Shown here piece after piece: positions 5,184 to 25,545 of a stretch of 64,000 nt of DNA (its first letter is position 1; each line of letters opens with the position of its first letter). A program made the translations under genes and the position numbers. Under the pieces are notes generated by a model. The model was not told the DNA's origin, did not search any database, and saw only the letters and a program-made list of their open reading frames with translations. This stretch comes from an uncultured delta proteobacterium (GTDB lineage Bacteria > Myxococcota_A > Polyangia > Polyangiales > Polyangiaceae): positions 64,001-128,000 of the forward strand of contig CAWKKR010000011.1 in NCBI GenBank assembly GCA_963850305.1, in the 5' to 3' direction.

Positions 5184-5187
<4 letters not shown>

Positions 5188-8100
5188 ACACCACCTTGGT
5201 GGGCAGACTCCTCGGCTTGGCCTTGATCGTATCCTCCGCGTTCGGTGCGGCGGGCTGCACCACGAGCTCGTTCTGTTTCGCCAACTGCGATGGCCAGGGT
5301 GCGGGTGGCGCGGGCGGCGGGAACAACCAGGGCGGCCAAGCCGGCGTGGTGATCAGCGTGGGGACCGGAGGAGAGGTCATCAAGCTGACGGAGGGCGGGA
5401 CCAGCACGAGCTGCGGCACGGTCGAGATCCCGTGCAACGGGATCGACGACAACTGCAACGGGCAGGTCGACGAAGGCACGGACTACACCGATCCGAGTCA
5501 ATGCGGCACGTGCGCGAACAACTGCCGCGCCTTGCTATCGAACGTGGTTCAGACCTCCATCACGTGCACGCCGCCGCCCGCCGCAGAGCTCGGGACCGTC
5601 GCGGGCATTTGCAATTTCACGCAATGCGCGCAGGACTTCTACAACATCGACGGGAATGCGACGAACGGGTGCGAGTACTACTGTCCGTACGACCCGGACG
5701 GCGGCGTCACGATCGACATCAACAACCACGGGCACTGCGGGATCGACGACAACTGCAACGGCAAGATCGACGAGAATCTCGACACCTGCACGGACCCCAA
5801 CAACTGCGGCGCCTGCGGGAACTCGTGCGTGGTTCCGAACGGCACGGCCAAATGCGTGTCGACCGCGGCTCCGGGCGCAGCCTGCACGAAGGACAACACG
5901 TCATGCCAGGTCGACAAGTGCGACCCCGGCTGGTGGGCGCTCCCGGGCGGTGAGGGGTGCTGGTACCAGTGCACGCCGACGAATAACGGCGTCGAGATCT
6001 GCGATGGCCTCGACAACGACTGCGACAACAAGATCGACGACGCCGACCCCGATCTCCAGACGGGCGACCCGGCCATCGGGCAGAGCTGTCAGGGCGGGGC
6101 CGACGGCATCTGTGCCAATCCGGCCAACGCGGGCGTCAACAAGTGCATCCTGGGGGCGATCGCCTGCTGCGATGTCGACTCGAACAACACTCCGGCGCAG
6201 GACCCGAACCTGCCGGCCACAGGCCTCCTGAACGGCGAGTGTCACGGCACCGTCGGACCATTCGTGATTCATCCCGGCAGTGACCAGGAGACATGCAACG
6301 GCCTCGACGACGACTGCGACGGCACGGTCGACGACAACGTCGTCGACGTCGGCCAAGCCTGCGGTAGCTCCGTCGGCATCTGCAACAAGGGCGTCAATAT
6401 TTGCGTCAATGGTGCGCCCGTCTGCAACGGCGCCACGATGCCGTCGGCGACCGACCCGTGCAACGGCGTGGATGACAACTGCGACGGGGTCATCGACGGC
6501 ATCGTTCCCGCCAGCGGTGCCGTCGCTTGCACGTCCAACGCGAACTGCACGGGCGGCACCATCTGCATGGTCCGCTCGAGCGCCTCGGACAAGGTCTGTG
6601 CAACGCCGGACCCGGAAGTGGGTCAGGCATGCGATCCGCCGCCGACCGCACCCTGCGTGAACGCGTCGGGACAGCAGGTAGATTGTGGAACGGCCGGAGC
6701 GACTCCCGTTCCGCAGCCGTGCAAGGCCGGCACCTGGACGTGCGCCGGAGAGCTCGTGTGCACGGGCGCCGTAGGCAAGACCAGCTCGACCGATGCGTGC
6801 GGCGTGGACTCGAACTGCGACGGGCGCCTCGACGCACAACCCGATCTCCAGAACGACGTCGCAAACTGCGGCGCCTGCGGGCACAACTGCAACGTCGCGG
6901 GGGCACACGAGAACTTCACCTGCGTGAAGGGTGTCTGCACGGTCGGGGCACAAAAGTGCGTCGCCGGATACATCGACTGCGACAGCAACCCGAACGACTG
7001 CGAGCGCGCTTGCACGCCGAACGGCGCCGAGCTGTGCAACGGCGTGGACGACGACTGCAACTGCAAGATCGACGACGGCATCGTCCCACCGGCACCCTCA
7101 CAGGTGTGCGGCGTCTCGCCGAGCGCGTCCGATCCGAACTGCGGTGCCGGCGCAGTTCACGTCGCCTGCACCGGCGGCGCGTGGGGTTGCACTTTCCCGT
7201 CGGGTTATTGCAACCAGGGGACGCCCCCGAGCTGCTCGACGACGGCCGACGTTTGCGACGGCAAGGACAACAACTGCAACGGCGCGACGGACGAAAACCA
7301 GAAGTTGCCGGTTCTGACCACGGGCTACCTCGGAGAGGCGTGCGCGAGCGACGACGGTAAAGCCGCGCCTGGAGACGGCGCGTGCCGCGGCACGGGCGTT
7401 TACGTCTGCAACGGCACGAGCGCGACCAAGTGCAACGCCGTGCGAAACACCAGCGCCGCGAGCCAGGAAGTCTGCGACGGCGTGGACAACGATTGTGACG
7501 GGCTGGTCGACGAGACCTTCAACAACCCCGGGACGAACGCATTCTTCGTCAAACCGGCGGTCGTGAAGGTGAACTCGACGACGTGGATGTACCAATACGA
7601 AGCTAGCCGGCCGAATGCGACCGGATCGGCGCCGGGCACCGGCGACGGTTACTGGTGCACGGGGAGTGGTTGCGCGTCGGGCATCCCGGCCGCGCCCTCG
7701 GGCGTGACACTCGACAAGACTCCCGCTTGCTCGGCCGCCTCGAAGATCCCGTGGTTCAACGTGACGCCCGCCGAGGTCGAGGAAACGTGCAACGCGATGG
7801 GCGGTACCGCGTGCCCCACGAGCGTGTTCACGACGGCGTGCCAGTCGAGCACCGGATCGTGTTCCTGGGGGTACTCGACGGCTTGCACGACGAGCCCCGC
7901 TACGCTCACCGCGGGCGATGGCACCGTCTACTACGACACCAGCAAGACGCCATTCTGCAACCTCGGTCCGTACGACTTCGACGGTACGCCCGGGGCGCCG
8001 AACTCCGACGGCCTTCTGCCGACGGGCGGCGGCGGGATCCTCAAGGGCTGTTATGCGCCGTTCGGCGGCGGTGCCTCGACGAGCCTCTTCGACATTACCG

Positions 8101-8288
8101 GCAACCTGCGCGAGATCACGAAGACCGGCAGCGGCGGGAGCGCAACTTACCCGGTGATGGGTGGCGCGTTCGATACACAGGTGGACACCGGTGCGGCGTG
8201 TACATTCACCTTCTACACGGTGGCGTCGACGTTCAGCCTCTACGACACCGGGTTCCGGTGCTGCTTCACGAGCGATCCGACTCAGTAG
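5184..8288 (+). CDS. Cys-rich repeat lipoprotein with C-terminal FGE-sulfatase-like (C-type lectin fold) domain
   Basis: Lipobox AAGC; CNG.DD.C repeats; C-terminal 'MYQYEAS..DITGNLREIT..GGAF..DTGFRCC'; ATGA overlap with the upstream gene. Confidence 0.85.
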
Positions 8289-8365
8289 ATGCCCATCGGC
8301 GAGAGCGCCTTCCCCGAAGCATGAAGCTCGGGTCGTCGCGTGGACGGTGGAGTCGAGTGTATCCT

Positions 8366-8530
8366 GCCGCGGCGTCGGGAACGAGGTCGGCCGTGACTTG
8401 GTGCCAAGAACCCGTTCAGTAGATGGACCCGGAGCCCTGCGAGCACCCCGAATTGTGACCGCGGGTCGAAAGATCCGGGAGCACGCCTAGTAGACTTCGA
8501 TGACGAGGGCTCCTCTCGACGCGCCGAAAG
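8366..8530 (+). ncRNA. Putative IS110 bridge RNA (ends approximate)
   Basis: Stem-bounded loops contain TCAGTAG (8416-8422, matches the target flank) and CCTAGTAGA (8486-8494, matches the predicted circle junction). Confidence 0.6.
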
Positions 8531-8536
8531 GAGGAG

Positions 8537-9769
8537 ATGGTCATGGAAGTCATGTATCCCCGTTGCGCGGGCCTCGACGTCCACAAGGATAGCGTCGTTG
8601 CCTGCGTGCGCTGCGTCAGCGAACCAACGCGGCGCGAGGTCCGAACGTTCGGCACGACCACACGTAGCCTCTTCGAGCTGGCGGAATGGCTCGAGGAGCA
8701 CGGCGTGACCCACGTGGCGATGGAGGCCACCGGCGTGTACTGGAAGCCGGTCTGGCACATGCTCGAAGGGAGCTTCGAACTCGTGCTCGCGAACGCCCAG
8801 CACATTCGCAACGTGCCAGGGCGCAAGACCGACGTGAACGACGCGACGTGGATCGCCGATCTGCTCGCGCACGGGCTGATCCGCAGCAGTTTCGTGCCTC
8901 CTGCGCGAATCCAGGAGCTGCGCGATCTCACTCGAACGCGCAAGCAGCTCGTGCGAGAAATCGCCCAGCACACGCTGCGCATACAGAAAACGCTCGAGGA
9001 CTCGAACATCAAGGTCGCGAGCGTCCTGTCCAGCGTGCTCGGGACCAGCGGCCGGGCGATGCTCGCCGCTCTCATCGCCGGAGAAGATGACCCCGAGCGC
9101 CTTGCCGATCTCGAGGTCGGTACCGCGCGCAAGAAGAGGGCCGACTTGATCGAAGCGCTGCGCGGGCGGGTTACCCCTCATCACCGAGCCATGCTGAAGC
9201 TGCATCTCGGCGTCATCGGCTCGCTCGAAGGGGCCCTGGCCGAGATCGATGCAGCTGCGGGAAAAGCGCTGGAGCCGATCCGGGCGCACGCCGAGATCCT
9301 GACGACGATGCCGGGAGTGAGTGACATCGTCGCGAACGTGATCGTGGCGGAGATCGGCGTCGACATGTCGCGCTTCCCGTCTGCGGGACACCTCGTGTCC
9401 TGGGCCGGCCTCTGCCCCCGCAACGACGAGAGCGCCGGCAAGCGTCGCTCGACGCGCGTCCGCAAGAGCGCCAACTGGCTCAAGACGACGCTCGTCACAT
9501 CCGCCTGGGCCGCGGTGCGCACGAAGGAAAGCTACCTTCGAGCCCAGTTTCTCCGGCTCAAGTCCCGCCGTGGAGCAAAGAAGGCGATCTTGGCCGTCGC
9601 CGCATCGATGCTCACCGCCGCCTTCTACATGCTCCGCGACGGCACTCCCTACCGCGACCTCGGACCCCATCACTTCGACCGCCGCGACCAGAGCAAGACC
9701 ATCAAACGCCTCGTCCGCCGCTTGACCGACCTCGGCTGCGAAGTCGAGATCAAACCTCATGCGGCGTAG
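8537..9769 (+). CDS. IS110 family transposase/recombinase (DEDD RuvC-like + Tnp20)
   Basis: GLDVHKD, MEATGVYW, KTDVND, PGVS, WAGLCPRNDESAGK motifs; RBS aggagg. Confidence 0.97.
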   Translation: MVMEVMYPRCAGLDVHKDSVVACVRCVSEPTRREVRTFGTTTRSLFELAEWLEEHGVTHVAMEATGVYWKPVWHMLEGSFELVLANAQHIRNVPGRKTDVNDATWIADLLAHGLIRSSFVPPARIQELRDLTRTRKQLVREIAQHTLRIQKTLEDSNIKVASVLSSVLGTSGRAMLAALIAGEDDPERLADLEVGTARKKRADLIEALRGRVTPHHRAMLKLHLGVIGSLEGALAEIDAAAGKALEPIRAHAEILTTMPGVSDIVANVIVAEIGVDMSRFPSAGHLVSWAGLCPRNDESAGKRRSTRVRKSANWLKTTLVTSAWAAVRTKESYLRAQFLRLKSRRGAKKAILAVAASMLTAAFYMLRDGTPYRDLGPHHFDRRDQSKTIKRLVRRLTDLGCEVEIKPHAA

Positions 9770-9778
9770 AGCTTCCTA

Positions 9779-10067
9779 GTAGTTCCGCACCGACGAGCAC
9801 CGTCGTCCCCGAGGGATCAAAGAGCTGCGGAACTACGCGAGCGCAGCGAGCGCGCCGAAGGCGGCGGGGGAGCGGTCGCGGAGCGAGCCGCGGGGGCAAG
9901 GCTCCCTTTGTCAATAGTAGCGCAGCGAGTACCGGGGGGAGGGGTTGCGTAGCAAGCCCCGGGGGGCGGGCAACGCCTGGAAGGCCCCCCTTGAGCAAAG
10001 CGAGCCCGCCGAAGGCGGCGGGGGGAGCGGTTGCGAAGCAAGTCGCGGGGGCCAAAGGTCCCCTTTT
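9779..10067 (+). repeat. REP/REPIN-like cluster: GTAG..CTAC inverted repeat followed by two full and one degenerate GAA-hairpin units
   Basis: gtagttccgca (9779-9789) / tgcggaactac (9826-9836) perfect 11-bp IR; units at about 9846-9908 and 10000-10066 match the 70-bp repeat. Confidence 0.8.
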
Positions 10068-10068
10068 G

Positions 10069-11067
10069 TCAGTGACGCTCAGGAGCGCCCGAGGCTTTCG
10101 ACCCGACACGGCGGCGGAACGCCTTCGTCGCCGGAGCGGTGTTCCGGGTGCGAGCACCAGCGCACTCACGGCGCGCCTCCGCGAGCCGCGCCGTGAGGTG
10201 CTCGACGAGAAAGTCCCGGAGCAGCGCCACACGCGAAGGGACGTGGACCGACGTCGGCAGGACGACGTGCACACCCCCACCCTCGAACGTGTATCCGCCC
10301 AGCACCAGCTCGAGTTCGTCGCGGCGAACGAACTCGCGCGCCAGCGCCACCGGAAGCAGGGCGATGCCCGCGCCGGCCGCCGCCAACCGGCCGACGAATT
10401 CCATCTCGTCAGCCGAGACCCTGCTCGAAACCTCAATCGACTCATCGCCGTTCGGTCCGCTCATGGTCCACGTCGCCCGTCCGCCGCGGCCGCGAAACAG
10501 GACGCACCCGTGGTGACGAAGGTCCGCGAGTTTCTCGGGGCGACCGCGCCGTCCGAGGTACGACGGTGCTCCGAACAGCGCCATGCTCGCCGCTCCAATC
10601 CGGCGTGCGACCAGCGAAGAGTCCACCAGTTTACCGGCACGAATCGCGAGGTCGACCCCCTCCGAAATGAGGTCCACGTTCCGCGCGGTGAGGATGAGCT
10701 CCACCTGAATCTTCGGGTACCGCGTAAGGAATTGGGCCACGATCTCGGGCAAGCCGAGCGACTGCGAGTCGGGGGGGCCGGTGAGGCGGACGGTGCCCCT
10801 CGGCTCGGAGCCATCCTCCTTCGCTGCATTCGCGGCGTCATCGACGTCCGCTACGGCCCGGCGCACGCGCTCGAAGAACGCCTGCCCGGCGTCGGTCGTC
10901 GCGAGCCGTCGGGTCGATCTGTGAAGGAGCCGGACGCCGAGAGATTCCTCGAGCCGCGCCACGCCACGACTCACCGACGACTTCTGGACGCCGAGCTTTT
11001 CTGCGACAGCGGTGAAGCTTCCCAGTTGCACGACTTGAACGAACAGGGAGACGTCGTTGTAGTCCAC
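10069..11067 (-). CDS. LysR-family transcriptional regulator (CrgA/DmlR-like)
   Basis: HTH 'FVQVVQLGSFTAVAEKLGVQKSSVSRGVARLEESLGVRLLHRSTR'; 'VDLISEGVDLAIR'; GTG start inferred. Confidence 0.93.
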   Translation of the reverse strand: MDYNDVSLFVQVVQLGSFTAVAEKLGVQKSSVSRGVARLEESLGVRLLHRSTRRLATTDAGQAFFERVRRAVADVDDAANAAKEDGSEPRGTVRLTGPPDSQSLGLPEIVAQFLTRYPKIQVELILTARNVDLISEGVDLAIRAGKLVDSSLVARRIGAASMALFGAPSYLGRRGRPEKLADLRHHGCVLFRGRGGRATWTMSGPNGDESIEVSSRVSADEMEFVGRLAAAGAGIALLPVALAREFVRRDELELVLGGYTFEGGGVHVVLPTSVHVPSRVALLRDFLVEHLTARLAEARRECAGARTRNTAPATKAFRRRVGSKASGAPERH

Positions 11068-24991: not shown

Positions 24992-25222
24992 CGGTGAAGC
25001 TCCCGTCTCGGAAATCCGCGAAAAGTACGGCCTTGTATAAGGTTTCACGGTATCACCCCCTAAAATCCCCTGTCAACGCGAGTTCCTTCTTCCTGAAGTG
25101 TCTCATGGAGGCGATCTCTTCCGAGACGGCCCAGCCACGCTTCTCGCTCCGCATCGACGACAGCATCTCGACGACGCCGTCGTCTCCGAAGAATCAACGA
25201 GGCGCGGAACTACGCGAGCGCA

Positions 25223-25496
25223 GCGAGCCCGCCGAAGGCGGCGGGGGAGCGGTCGCGAAGCGAGCCGCGGGGGTCAAGACCCCCTTGCGAGCGCGAGCCC
25301 GCCGAAGGCGGCGGGGGAGCGGTCGCGAAGCGAGCCGCGGGGGTCAAGACCCCCTTGCGAGCGCGAGCCCGCCGAAGGCGGCGGGGGAGCGGTCGCGAAG
25401 CGAGCCGCGGGGGTCAAGACCCCCTTGCGAGCGCGAGCCCGCCGAAGGCGGCGGGGGAGCGGTCGCGAAGCGAGCCGCGGGGGTCAAGACCCCCTT
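25223..25496 (+). repeat. Tandem array of 4 x 70-bp REP-like GAA-hairpin units
   Basis: gccgaaggcg recurs at 25231, 25301, 25371 and 25441; units identical with no spacers. Confidence 0.97.
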
Positions 25497-25545
25497 TCCT
25501 AGTAGACTTCCTGGGCCGCTCGTGGGTTCTTCGGTGGGAGGTTCC

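What the first reader, a model, noticed from the sequence alone, without database searches (positions are those of the whole stretch)
8282..9790. IS110 with a readable bridge RNA: internal loops match its own target and donor junctions
Seen: the left junction is actc-AGTAG-atgccc (8284-8288) and the right junction is ttcct-AGTAG-ttccgc (9778-9782). The empty target would therefore be ctcagtAG|ttccgc and the circle junction cctagtAG|atgccc. The 248-nt left non-coding end holds TCAGTAG (8416-8422) inside an acccg/cgggt stem, matching the target's left side. It also holds CCTAGTAGA (8486-8494) inside a ggagc/gctcc stem, a 9/9 match to the predicted circle junction. Known: IS110 recombinases such as IS621 use a left-end bridge RNA with a target loop followed by a donor loop, the same order as here. 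Inference: this is a myxobacterial RNA-guided recombinase with an AG (or TAG) core. Caveats: the right-hand guides are not obvious (only gaatt at 8450-8454, needing a wobble), and the first loop also matches 10 nt across the left junction (tcagtagatg).
Basis: partly seen in the sequence, partly recalled or inferred. Interest (0 to 1): 0.85.

Follow-up and report, generated by a model that had tools for sequence, protein, structure and literature searches.

The report
IS110 element with readable bridge RNA
This is an active RNA-guided jumping gene whose guide RNA letters match its landing site and its own ends, a known kind of system with its guide pieces in an unusual order and miniature offspring that serve as its landing pads.

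Summary
Window 8289-9782 is an IS110-family element, and the genome holds 8 copies at 99.7% identity or more. In about 100 relatives, 8416-8420 tracks the left flank (z 11.6-14.8) and 8487-8491 tracks the element's right end (z 7.7-11). The core is AG.

- Neither proposed stem is supported. The supported fold is P1-P4 plus two hairpins.
- "gaatt" at 8450-8454 does not track the right flank. The right target guide is GACU at 8395-8398, upstream of the left guide.
- So the guide order within the target loop is reversed relative to IS621, and apparently within the donor loop too.

Two bases after the left guide (8423-8424) track the element's own first two bases.

The target is the left junction of an abundant miniature element that carries this IS lineage's ends. 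Two IS copies carry that miniature element exactly at the DNA encoding the left guide.

Verdict: a well-supported variant of a known kind. Expression, circle formation and activity are untested.

The parts
8282..8288 (+). Left target plus core (TCAGTAG; core AG at 8287-8288). TAG at 8286-8288 is also the stop codon of the upstream ORF 5184-8288.
   Evidence: 7 of 8 genomic copies have TCAGTAG here, after unrelated flanks.
8289..9782 (+). IS110-family insertion sequence. The boundary can shift by up to 5 nt because AGTAG occurs at both junctions.
   Evidence: 8 copies, 99.7-100% identical.
8294..8325 (+). Left-end terminal domain shared with the head of the miniature element.
   Evidence: local alignment with the head consensus, z 7.0 for this copy and 11.8 for the closest relative L072.
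8372..8522 (+). Bridge RNA core, closed by stem P1 (8372-8378 with 8516-8522).
   Evidence: covarying pairs. G-U pairs fit the + strand only.
8385..8429 (+). Target-binding loop, closed by P2 (GGUC 8385-8388 with GACC 8426-8429).
   Evidence: helix 2 is 97.2% paired, and 3 of 4 pairs show changes on both sides.
8395..8398 (+). Right target guide GACU. CU pairs with core AG, and GA pairs with the flank's TT (one G-T wobble).
   Evidence: antisense covariation with the first three flank bases, z 6.1, 5.0 and 3.3 (n=73).
8399..8414 (+). Hairpin P3 between the right and left target guides.
   Evidence: helix 3 is 97% paired and mostly invariant.
8416..8422 (+). Left target guide UCAGUAG (same sense as the left flank plus core).
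   Evidence: z 11.6-14.8, match fraction 0.93-0.99.
8423..8424 (+). Two-base extension of the left guide (AU) that matches the element's own first two bases (AT at 8289-8290).
   Evidence: same-sense covariation with the element's first two bases, z 5.9 and 8.3, fractions 0.96 and 0.94. No signal with the right flank.
8431..8513 (+). Donor-binding loop, closed by P4 (GGAGCCCU 8431-8438 with AGGGCUCC 8506-8513).
   Evidence: 7 of 8 pairs show changes on both sides.
8451..8454 (+). Presumptive right donor guide AAUU.
   Evidence: pairs with the core (1.0, 0.89-0.90) and with the element's first two bases (0.88, 0.68), but no covariation, because 48 of 66 elements start with TT. The assignment rests on its position, which mirrors the target loop.
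8455..8484 (+). Donor-loop hairpin of variable length. In this copy it is capped by a GAAA loop (8462-8477).
   Evidence: in helix 6 all 5 pairs change on both sides. Searches show length variation.
8487..8493 (+). Left donor guide CUAGUAG (same sense as the right end plus core).
   Evidence: z 7.7-11.
8537..9769 (+). Recombinase gene, 410 aa.
   Evidence: Intact in 7 of 8 copies.
9776..9782 (+). Right end of the element: left donor plus core (CTAGTAG). Only 13 nt lie after the stop codon.
9783..10078 (+). Miniature non-coding element. A head (TTCCGCA...GCGGAACTAC) resembles the IS left end and is followed by roughly 70-nt units. The IS sits at its left junction.
25147..25505 (+). Second copy of the miniature element in the window: head, four 70-nt units, end ...CCCTTTCCTAGTAG.

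Best explanation
Window 8289-9782 is a recently active IS110-family insertion sequence. Its 248-nt left end encodes a bridge RNA, and its 410-aa DEDD/Ser recombinase uses that RNA to recombine the element's joined ends with a target at an AG core.

The RNA core (about 8372-8522) has an outer stem enclosing two loops.

Target loop. [quoted passage not shown] A hairpin follows. [quoted passage not shown] The next two bases read the element's own first two bases, probably pairing with the recombined left junction.

Donor loop. It has the same layout: AAUU (8451-8454, presumptive), a hairpin, then CUAGUAG (8487-8493), which reads the right end.

Within the target loop the short antisense guide comes before the long sense guide. 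This is the reverse of IS621, and by position the donor loop appears to follow the same pattern.

The preferred target, TCAGTAG|TT, is the left junction of an abundant miniature element. That element carries this IS lineage's left-end head and right-end tail, so it is most likely moved by the same machinery acting in trans.

Shown here: boundaries, copy number, protein family, RNA fold, covariation of three guides, target preference, and homology of the miniature element's ends.

Inferred: transcription, RNA-protein binding, recombination chemistry, trans-mobilisation, and the role of the two-base extension.
For: - Protein family and catalytic residues.
- 8 copies at 99.7% identity or more, 7 with an intact ORF.
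- Fold. RNAalifold predicts 23 pairs, 15 of them with compensatory changes. With my structure, 88.9% of cells pair against 77.2% in shuffles and 34-46% when the partner is slid. 21 pairs change on both sides against 13.0 expected. For every measure, 0 of 500 shuffles reach the observed value.
- Left target guide: z 11.6-14.8, n=72. Left donor guide: z 7.7-11, n=53.
- Exact own-guide matches in 64 of 78 and 64 of 83 loci, against 2 of 780 and 10 of 830 for foreign guides.
- Right target guide: z 6.1, 5.0 and 3.3. Both of the first two flank bases pair in 0.55 of loci against 0.18 in the null, whose maximum over 2000 shuffles is 0.33.
- Four close relatives (93-100% aa identity) have different flanks with fitting guides: TT/GA, TT/AA (read one base to the right of the tested register), GG/CC and AG/UU.
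- Target preference in this genome: 6 of 15 TCAGTAG|TTCCGCA sites are occupied against 1 of 45 other TCAGTAG sites (Fisher p 0.0006).
- The sense rules for the guides agree with IS621 (passages read in PMC11208160).
Against: - No RNA data. No listed sequencing run is on record as RNA.
- No sigma-70-like promoter was found in the linear form.
- No circle junction was seen in the Logan contigs laid.
- Single-sequence folding is no better than shuffles (z 0.5 and 0.02).
- The right donor guide has no covariation support, and this element's own first base (A) mismatches it.
- The right target guide fits only about 70% of relatives at each position. In some the core-pairing letters are not CU, or the register shifts by one.
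- Related sequences can inflate shuffle statistics. I removed duplicates only by guide-and-flank identity.
Confidence: 0.85

Rival explanations
1. The internal copies of the junction sequences are DNA sites bound by the transposase (subterminal repeats), not RNA guides. No bridge RNA would be involved.
For: This copy alone cannot distinguish DNA motifs from RNA guides. No RNA data exist.
Against: The left guide and the GACU segment track flanking host DNA, which is not part of the element. They sit in a scaffold with compensatory base-pair changes and invariant G-U pairs, which make sense only for a + strand RNA. The protein matches the family that NCBIfam names RNA-guided.
Confidence: 0.04
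2. The mobile unit is IS plus the downstream miniature element as one composite. The true right end would lie beyond 10078, and the 'target' TTCCGCA would be part of the element.
For: 7 of 8 copies have the miniature element downstream. Three of them share a head variant (TTCCGCACCGACGAGCACCG) seen in none of the solo heads listed. ISPpu9 is reported to move together with MITEPpu9 through alternative circles (PMC12288879, passages read).
Against: One copy ends at CCTAGTAG with an unrelated flank. Downstream arrays differ in length, from 119 to 675 nt. IS copies are 99.7% identical or more, while the arrays are about 80-97.6% identical to each other. Relatives in other genomes end at the same CCTAGTAG-type terminus with unrelated flanks. 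9 unoccupied TCAGTAG|TTCCGCA sites exist.
Confidence: 0.2
3. The repeat is an ordinary host REP-like element unrelated to the IS. The IS merely targets it, as IS621 targets REP, and the end resemblance is chance or convergence.
For: Targeting of repeats by IS110 members is well known (PMC11208160 reference list; PMC12288879). The internal 70-nt units have no counterpart in the IS.
Against: The head consensus aligns with the left-end terminal domain of the closest relative at 28 of 33 positions, z 11.8. For this copy z is 7.0. Many arrays end in ...CCCTTTCCTAGTAG, which shares 10 nt with the IS right end. The elements are bracketed by AGTAG, as the IS is. A complete 125-nt copy is cleanly inserted at a guide-matching site inside the IS.
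Confidence: 0.15
4. The guide order is as in IS621. The real right target guide would lie downstream of the left guide, and the signal at 8395-8396 would be a phylogenetic artefact.
For: Only two to three positions carry the signal, and about 30% of relatives do not fit. Related sequences inflate shuffle tests.
Against: No column downstream of the left guide shows antisense covariation with the right flank as a diagonal. Above threshold were only 8395-8396 and two isolated cells, 8424 and 8491. The downstream candidate 8450-8454 gives z 0 and -1.8. Long matches occur at the upstream position in several relatives, for example L051 at 8 of 8. The donor loop shows the same layout. The reverse order is already documented for IS1111-type seekRNAs (PMC11187229, abstract and passages).
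Confidence: 0.12

Closest known systems
IS621 bridge RNA and recombinase (IS110 group; Durrant 2024 PMC11208160, Hiraizumi 2024 PMC11208158; passages and one section read)
   Same: - DEDD plus Ser recombinase, with homology at E 1.1e-12.
- The RNA is encoded in the left end upstream of the gene, target loop first and donor loop second.
- Long guides are same-sense as the left flank or right end and include a 2-nt core.
- The right target guide is short, 4 nt, and antisense.
- The target is a repeated element.
   Different: - In IS621 each loop runs stem, left guide, stem-loop, right guide: LTG A50-U58, then RTG G77-G80. Here the right target guide comes first (8395-8398, then 8416-8422).
- The core is AG, not CT.
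- Left guides are 7 nt, not 9 and 8.
- Two bases after the left target guide read the element's own first bases. IS621's handshake guides sit beside the right guides.
- The protein is 410 aa against 326.
IS1111-type seekRNAs (Siddiquee 2024, PMC11187229; abstract and passages read)
   Same: In those RNAs the segment complementary to the top strand precedes the segment matching it. That is the same order as here.
   Different: Those RNAs lie downstream of the gene, and the elements have 7-17-bp subterminal inverted repeats. Here the RNA is upstream, and only 13 nt follow the stop codon.
ISPpu9 with MITEPpu9 in Pseudomonas putida KT2440 (PMC12288879; passages read)
   Same: An IS110-family element that recombines at an AG dinucleotide. 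A miniature element carries copies of the IS end boxes, lies downstream of most IS copies, and also occurs alone. Mobilisation in trans has been proposed.
   Different: MITEPpu9 carries an sRNA gene (ssr9) and has 8 copies. Here 57 arrays were listed, with internal 70-nt tandem units. The target is the miniature element's own left junction rather than a REP sequence. Relatedness of the two IS at sequence level was not tested.
Tandem non-coding repeat units beside IS110 transposases (bioRxiv 10.64898/2026.08.14.744561; passages read)
   Same: The preprint reports tandem build-up of non-coding repeat units next to IS110 modules, with unit boundaries that keep matches to the left donor only. Here the arrays end in, and some units approach, the right-end motif CCTAGTAG.
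   Different: I did not test whether the 70-nt units arose by recombinase action or by slippage. Most internal unit ends here read ...CCCCCTTGCGAACACGAG, not the donor motif.

Membership tests
IS110 family, IS110 group (bridge-RNA-guided) | N-terminal DEDD (RuvC-like) domain plus C-terminal Tnp domain | tested here: met
   PF01548 at 98.2 bits and PF02371 at 80.3 bits. NF033542 at 283.6 bits against a cut-off of 140.
IS110 family, IS110 group (bridge-RNA-guided) | Catalytic Asp, Glu, Asp, Asp and Ser | tested here: met
   D14, E63, D99, D102 and S299 align with the IS621 residues that PMC11208158 names D11, E60, D102, D105 and S241. The PDB chain numbering is offset by 2.
IS110 family, IS110 group (bridge-RNA-guided) | Long non-coding left end upstream of the gene encoding a conserved structured RNA | tested here: met
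   248-nt left end. Covarying stems.
IS110 family, IS110 group (bridge-RNA-guided) | Sense guides matching the left flank plus core and the right end plus core | tested here: met
IS110 family, IS110 group (bridge-RNA-guided) | Antisense guide for core plus right flank | tested here: met
   8395-8398, z 6.1 and 5.0.
IS110 family, IS110 group (bridge-RNA-guided) | Antisense guide for core plus the element's left-end start | tested here: inconclusive
   8451-8454 pairs in most relatives, but the partner bases hardly vary. It mismatches this element's first base.
IS110 family, IS110 group (bridge-RNA-guided) | Same short core at both junctions and no other duplication | tested here: met
   AG within AGTAG at 8284-8288 and 9778-9782. 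AG is nearly invariant in both guides across relatives.
IS110 family, IS110 group (bridge-RNA-guided) | IS621-type order within a loop (left guide 5' of right guide) | tested here: not met
   The right target guide lies 5' of the left guide. This feature defines the IS621 layout, not the family.
IS110 family, IS110 group (bridge-RNA-guided) | Circular intermediate with a junction promoter; RNA expressed and bound by the recombinase | not testable with these tools
   No RNA run was listed and only contigs were available. The promoter scan covered the linear form only.
IS1111 group | Guide RNA downstream of the gene and 7-17-bp subterminal inverted repeats | tested here: not met
   Only 13 nt follow the stop codon, and the RNA is upstream. 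Inverted repeats were not searched for specifically.
Miniature non-autonomous derivative of an IS (MITE-like, as MITEPpu9) | Both ends resemble the parent IS ends, no gene, many copies, bracketed by the same core | tested here: met
   The head matches the left end (z 7.0-11.8). The tail is ...TTCCTAGTAG. 57 arrays of 27-675 nt were listed. AGTAG lies before most heads. Actual mobilisation was not tested.

The most novel reading that the evidence does not exclude
This widespread clade of left-end-encoded bridge RNAs has both binding loops circularly permuted relative to IS621: short antisense guide, hairpin, long sense guide. It adds a two-base 'bottom-strand handshake' after the left target guide that reads the element's own first bases. 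In this genome the system acts in trans on a miniature-element family whose joined ends fit the donor loop better than the IS's own (TT against AT). Because a sense guide is spelled in DNA, the guide gene is itself a half-target, and it has been hit by the miniature element in two IS copies.
Probability: 0.45. Interest if true: 0.6.

Novelty: new variant of a known kind. Interest (0 to 1): 0.45.

Why it matters
Bridge recombinases are being engineered as programmable DNA-insertion tools, almost entirely from IS621/IS622-type RNAs.

- A clade with about 100 natural variants gives a second scaffold for design. Its guide positions can be read directly from covariation, and the guide order in the target loop is reversed.
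- The variants include close relatives that differ only in their guides.
- The two-base extension that reads the element's own end points to a testable control of reaction direction or product stability.
- The miniature elements are a natural case of trans-mobilisation. They also show a guide gene being hit as an off-target half-site, which bears on specificity.

Tried and rejected
- Single-sequence folding of 8289-8536 and 8380-8536 was no better than shuffles (z 0.50 and 0.02). It is uninformative at this G+C content.
- Rfam 15 at E up to 10 gave only a chance miRNA hit on the minus strand.
- Tandem Repeats Finder on 9700-10700 returned no rows.
- The promoter scan of 8150-10150 found 0 sigma-70-like sites. 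I did not scan the joined ends.
- Sequencing runs: no RNA holder was listed. Logan contigs of four soil-metagenome runs from one study covered fragments at low depth. They showed no joint between right and left ends and none skipping the element.
- I tested whether the elements home to stop codons. By a crude codon-phase test, only 5 of 53 solo heads follow the stop codon of a coding frame. Dropped.
- A regex for heads (AGTTCCGCA) gave 145 hits, mostly spurious. I replaced it with BLAST-defined heads.
- Handshake guides of the IS621 type beside the right guides: the adjacent bases are invariant stem bases here, so no signal was possible.
- Look-ups of earlier findings by place and by sequence returned nothing. 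One word search also returned nothing.
- Did the two IS copies carrying the miniature element arise from one insertion? The inserts are identical, and the next best genomic copy is 96% identical. But the two IS copies differ at 8942-8943. Unresolved.
Full report
WHAT IS THERE

A 410-aa ORF (8537-9769) follows a 248-nt non-coding stretch. The protein carries the two IS110 domains. It matches NCBIfam's "IS110 family RNA-guided transposase" at 283.6 bits against a cut-off of 140. It aligns with the IS621 recombinase of PDB 8wt6 (E 1.1e-12). D14, E63, D99, D102 and S299 fall on that enzyme's catalytic residues (residue names from PMC11208158, passages read).

The window's genome (6.26 Mb, 66.5% G+C) holds 8 copies at 99.7-100% identity.
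- Seven copies have an intact ORF. One has a single-base insertion near the 3' end.
- Left flanks are unrelated up to TCAGTAG in 7 of 8 copies, and GTAGTAG in the eighth.
- All copies end in CCTAGTAG, followed by TTCCGCA in 7 of 8 and by CCCCGTC in one.
- So the element is 8289-9782, with a 5-nt ambiguity because AGTAG stands at both junctions.

RELATIVES AND THE RNA FOLD

Scans with the protein returned 41 loci from genome contigs (47-85% identity, many phyla). From metagenome contigs they returned the best 80 of 204. Of 122 loci with a protein match, 106 had at least 200 nt upstream and were aligned. The left end is conserved across them.

On a subset of 27 sequences, RNAalifold predicts 23 pairs, 15 of them with compensatory changes. 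I took these 27 from the 33 rows. I left out four near-duplicates (L047, L052, L055, L062) and two that aligned poorly (L049, L067).

I then counted a fuller structure:
- P1: 8372-8378 with 8516-8522
- P2: 8385-8388 with 8426-8429
- P3: hairpin 8399-8414
- P4: 8431-8438 with 8506-8513
- a hairpin within 8455-8484

For this structure 88.9% of cells pair, against 77.2% in shuffles and 34-46% when the partner is slid. Twenty-one pairs change on both sides against 13.0 expected. In every measure 0 of 500 shuffles reach the observed value. An invariant U-G pair and many G-U variants fit only a + strand RNA.

The gctcc at 8509-8513 pairs with ggagc at 8432-8436, not with 8478-8482. The cgggt belongs to the donor-loop hairpin.

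THE GUIDES

I compared every left-end column with 10 nt of each flank and each element end, against 200 permutations of the pairing between loci. I dropped loci whose junction match had more than 2 mismatches, and duplicates by flank and guides. That left n = 72, 53, 76 and 71.

- Left target guide. Columns 8416-8420 are same-sense with the five bases before the core (z 11.6-14.8, fraction 0.93-0.99).
- Left donor guide. Columns 8487-8491 are same-sense with the five bases before the core at the right end (z 7.7-11).
- Own against foreign guides. The own 7-nt guides occur exactly at the expected place in 64 of 78 and 64 of 83 loci. Foreign guides do so in 2 of 780 and 10 of 830 trials.

This is the sense rule of IS621, where the left guides pair with the bottom strand (PMC11208160, passages). 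The core is AG, nearly invariant in both guides.

Right target guide. The antisense signal with the right flank lies at 8396 (first flank base, z 6.1) and 8395 (second base, z 4.9). Two isolated cells, at 8424 and 8491, form no diagonal. I repeated the test with the 10 nt anchored on the start of hairpin P3 (83 loci, 73 after removing duplicates). This gave z 6.1, 5.0 and 3.3 for the first three flank bases. Both of the first two bases pair in 0.55 of loci, against 0.18 in the null with a maximum of 0.33 in 2000 shuffles. About 30% of loci do not fit at each position. In some the core-pairing letters are not CU, or the register shifts by one.

Four close relatives (93-100% aa identity) have different flanks with fitting guides:
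- this copy: TT with GA
- L072: TT with AA, read one base to the right of the tested register
- L092: GG with CC
- L117: AG with UU

In this copy GACU (8395-8398) pairs with AG|TT through one G-T wobble.

It pairs with the core (1.0, 0.89-0.90) and with the first two bases of the element (0.88, 0.68). Those bases are TT in 48 of 66 loci, so covariation cannot be measured. By its position, directly 5' of the donor-loop hairpin as GACU is of P3, it is the presumptive right donor guide. This element's own first base, A, mismatches it.

Extension of the left guide. The two bases after the left target guide (8423-8424) are same-sense with the element's first two bases (z 5.9 and 8.3; fractions 0.96 and 0.94), not with the right flank.

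LAYOUT COMPARED WITH KNOWN SYSTEMS

In IS621 each loop runs stem, left guide, stem-loop, right guide: LTG A50-U58, then RTG G77-G80 (PMC11208158, passage). Here the target loop runs stem, right guide, hairpin, left guide, stem. By position the donor loop appears to run the same way. Topologically this is a circular permutation of the IS621 loop.

The reverse order of the two target-matching segments is documented for IS1111-type seekRNAs, which lie downstream of the gene (PMC11187229, abstract and passages). Durrant et al. note diverse bridge RNA structures (section 12 read).

Two full-text searches found no paper describing this layout for a left-end-encoded RNA: 'bridge RNA, IS110, permut' and 'bridge RNA, RTG, LTG, reversed'. 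I could not see figures or supplements, and the clusters of a 2026 preprint may include it (passages). Other agents of this scan report reversed guide order in at least five other genomes. Those are unchecked leads, not evidence.

THE TARGET AND THE MINIATURE ELEMENT

The sequence to the right of the IS is a repeat.
- Its 56-nt head gives 70 BLAST hits in the genome, mostly preceded by nAGTAG.
- 57 arrays with a head-like motif were listed, 27-675 nt long. Many end in ...CCCTTTCCTAGTAG followed by unrelated DNA.
- The head consensus, built from 61 heads, aligns with the terminal domain of the IS left end. For the closest relative L072 the match is 28 of 33 positions, z 11.8. For this copy z is 7.0. 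Of 91 relatives, 18 have z above 4.
- The tail shares 10 nt with the IS right end.

So the repeat has the parent's two ends, is bracketed by the same AGTAG, and has no gene. It is a miniature derivative, with internal 70-nt tandem units.

The genome has 68 TCAGTAG sites. Before insertion, 15 were followed by TTCCGCA and 6 of these are occupied. Of the 45 others, 1 is occupied (Fisher p 0.0006). All 11 TCAGTAG|TT sites are of this repeat, so the 2-nt guide cannot be separated here from other features of the repeat.

The closest relative, from a metagenome (L072, 95% aa identity), sits at the same TTCCGCATCG.

The nearest published parallel is ISPpu9 with MITEPpu9 (AG recombination site, miniature element downstream of most copies; PMC12288879, passages). 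Tandem non-coding units beside IS110 genes are described in a 2026 preprint (passages).

A MINIATURE ELEMENT INSIDE THE GUIDE GENE

Two IS copies (G000 C5:149074 and C8:718130) carry a complete 125-nt miniature element exactly after TCAGTAG of the left guide's DNA. It runs from TTCCGCA to CCTAGTAG and is followed by ATGGACC. That DNA is by construction a copy of the left half of the target, so this looks like a half-matched self-hit.

The two inserts are identical, and the next best genomic copy is 96% identical. Yet the two IS copies have different flanks, and they differ at 8942-8943. Either a copy with a broken guide gene moved with RNA supplied by other copies, or the same element hit twice, or copies exchanged sequence. 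I cannot tell which.

WHAT IS NOT SHOWN

- No RNA run was listed.
- The contigs laid showed no circle junction.
- No promoter was found in the linear form.
- Transcription, protein binding, recombination, trans-mobilisation and the role of 8423-8424 are inferences from the family's known mechanism.

VERDICT

This is a real IS110 element with a readable bridge RNA. The stems and the right-hand guide are corrected. It is a variant of a known kind. It is of moderate interest for its guide order, its self-reading extension and its miniature-element partners.

Noticed in passing
window 25147-25505: A second copy of the miniature element: degenerate head CTCCGCATCG..., four 70-nt units, and an end ...CCCTTTCCTAGTAG. 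It is not preceded by AGTAG.
   Followed up: partly
window 5184-8288: A 1034-aa Cys-rich ORF with five MopE-type metal-binding motif matches. Its stop codon TAG is part of the TCAGTAG landing site, so neither the miniature element nor the IS changes the protein.
   Followed up: no
G000 C8:1204432-1204946, C5:298941-299562, C8:864176-864850: Arrays of up to about eight 70-nt units (GCCGAAGGCGGC..GGGGGTCAAGACCCCC..) inside the miniature elements. It is open whether slippage or the recombinase made them.
   Followed up: partly
G000 C11:73783, C5:150706, C8:830549: Three IS-adjacent heads share the variant TTCCGCACCGACGAGCACCG, which none of the solo heads listed has. This hints at co-movement of IS and head, or at gene conversion.
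   Followed up: partly
L036-L039, L060, L055 (Dehalococcoidia MAGs): A multi-copy relative (about 50% aa identity) whose guides end in AA(T), not AG. It has a longer apparent right target guide (UGUCA against a TGACA flank). In L039 its right end is followed directly by another copy's left end.
   Followed up: no
L082: The relative's right end CTTAATAG is followed by TAG TTGCCCA..., which looks like the start of its own left end. This is the same arrangement of an IS followed by a left-end-like head as in the window.
   Followed up: no
G000 C8:864844-866352: This IS copy has a one-base insertion near window-equivalent 9745 that removes the normal stop codon. It is also the copy with the deviant left flank GTAGTAG.
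   Followed up: no
G000 C7:290986-291391 and C8:1022309-1022652: Head-to-tail runs of two to four complete miniature elements. Each follows ...TTAGTAG or ...CTAGTAC of the previous one, as expected if new copies land at the left junction of resident ones.
   Followed up: no
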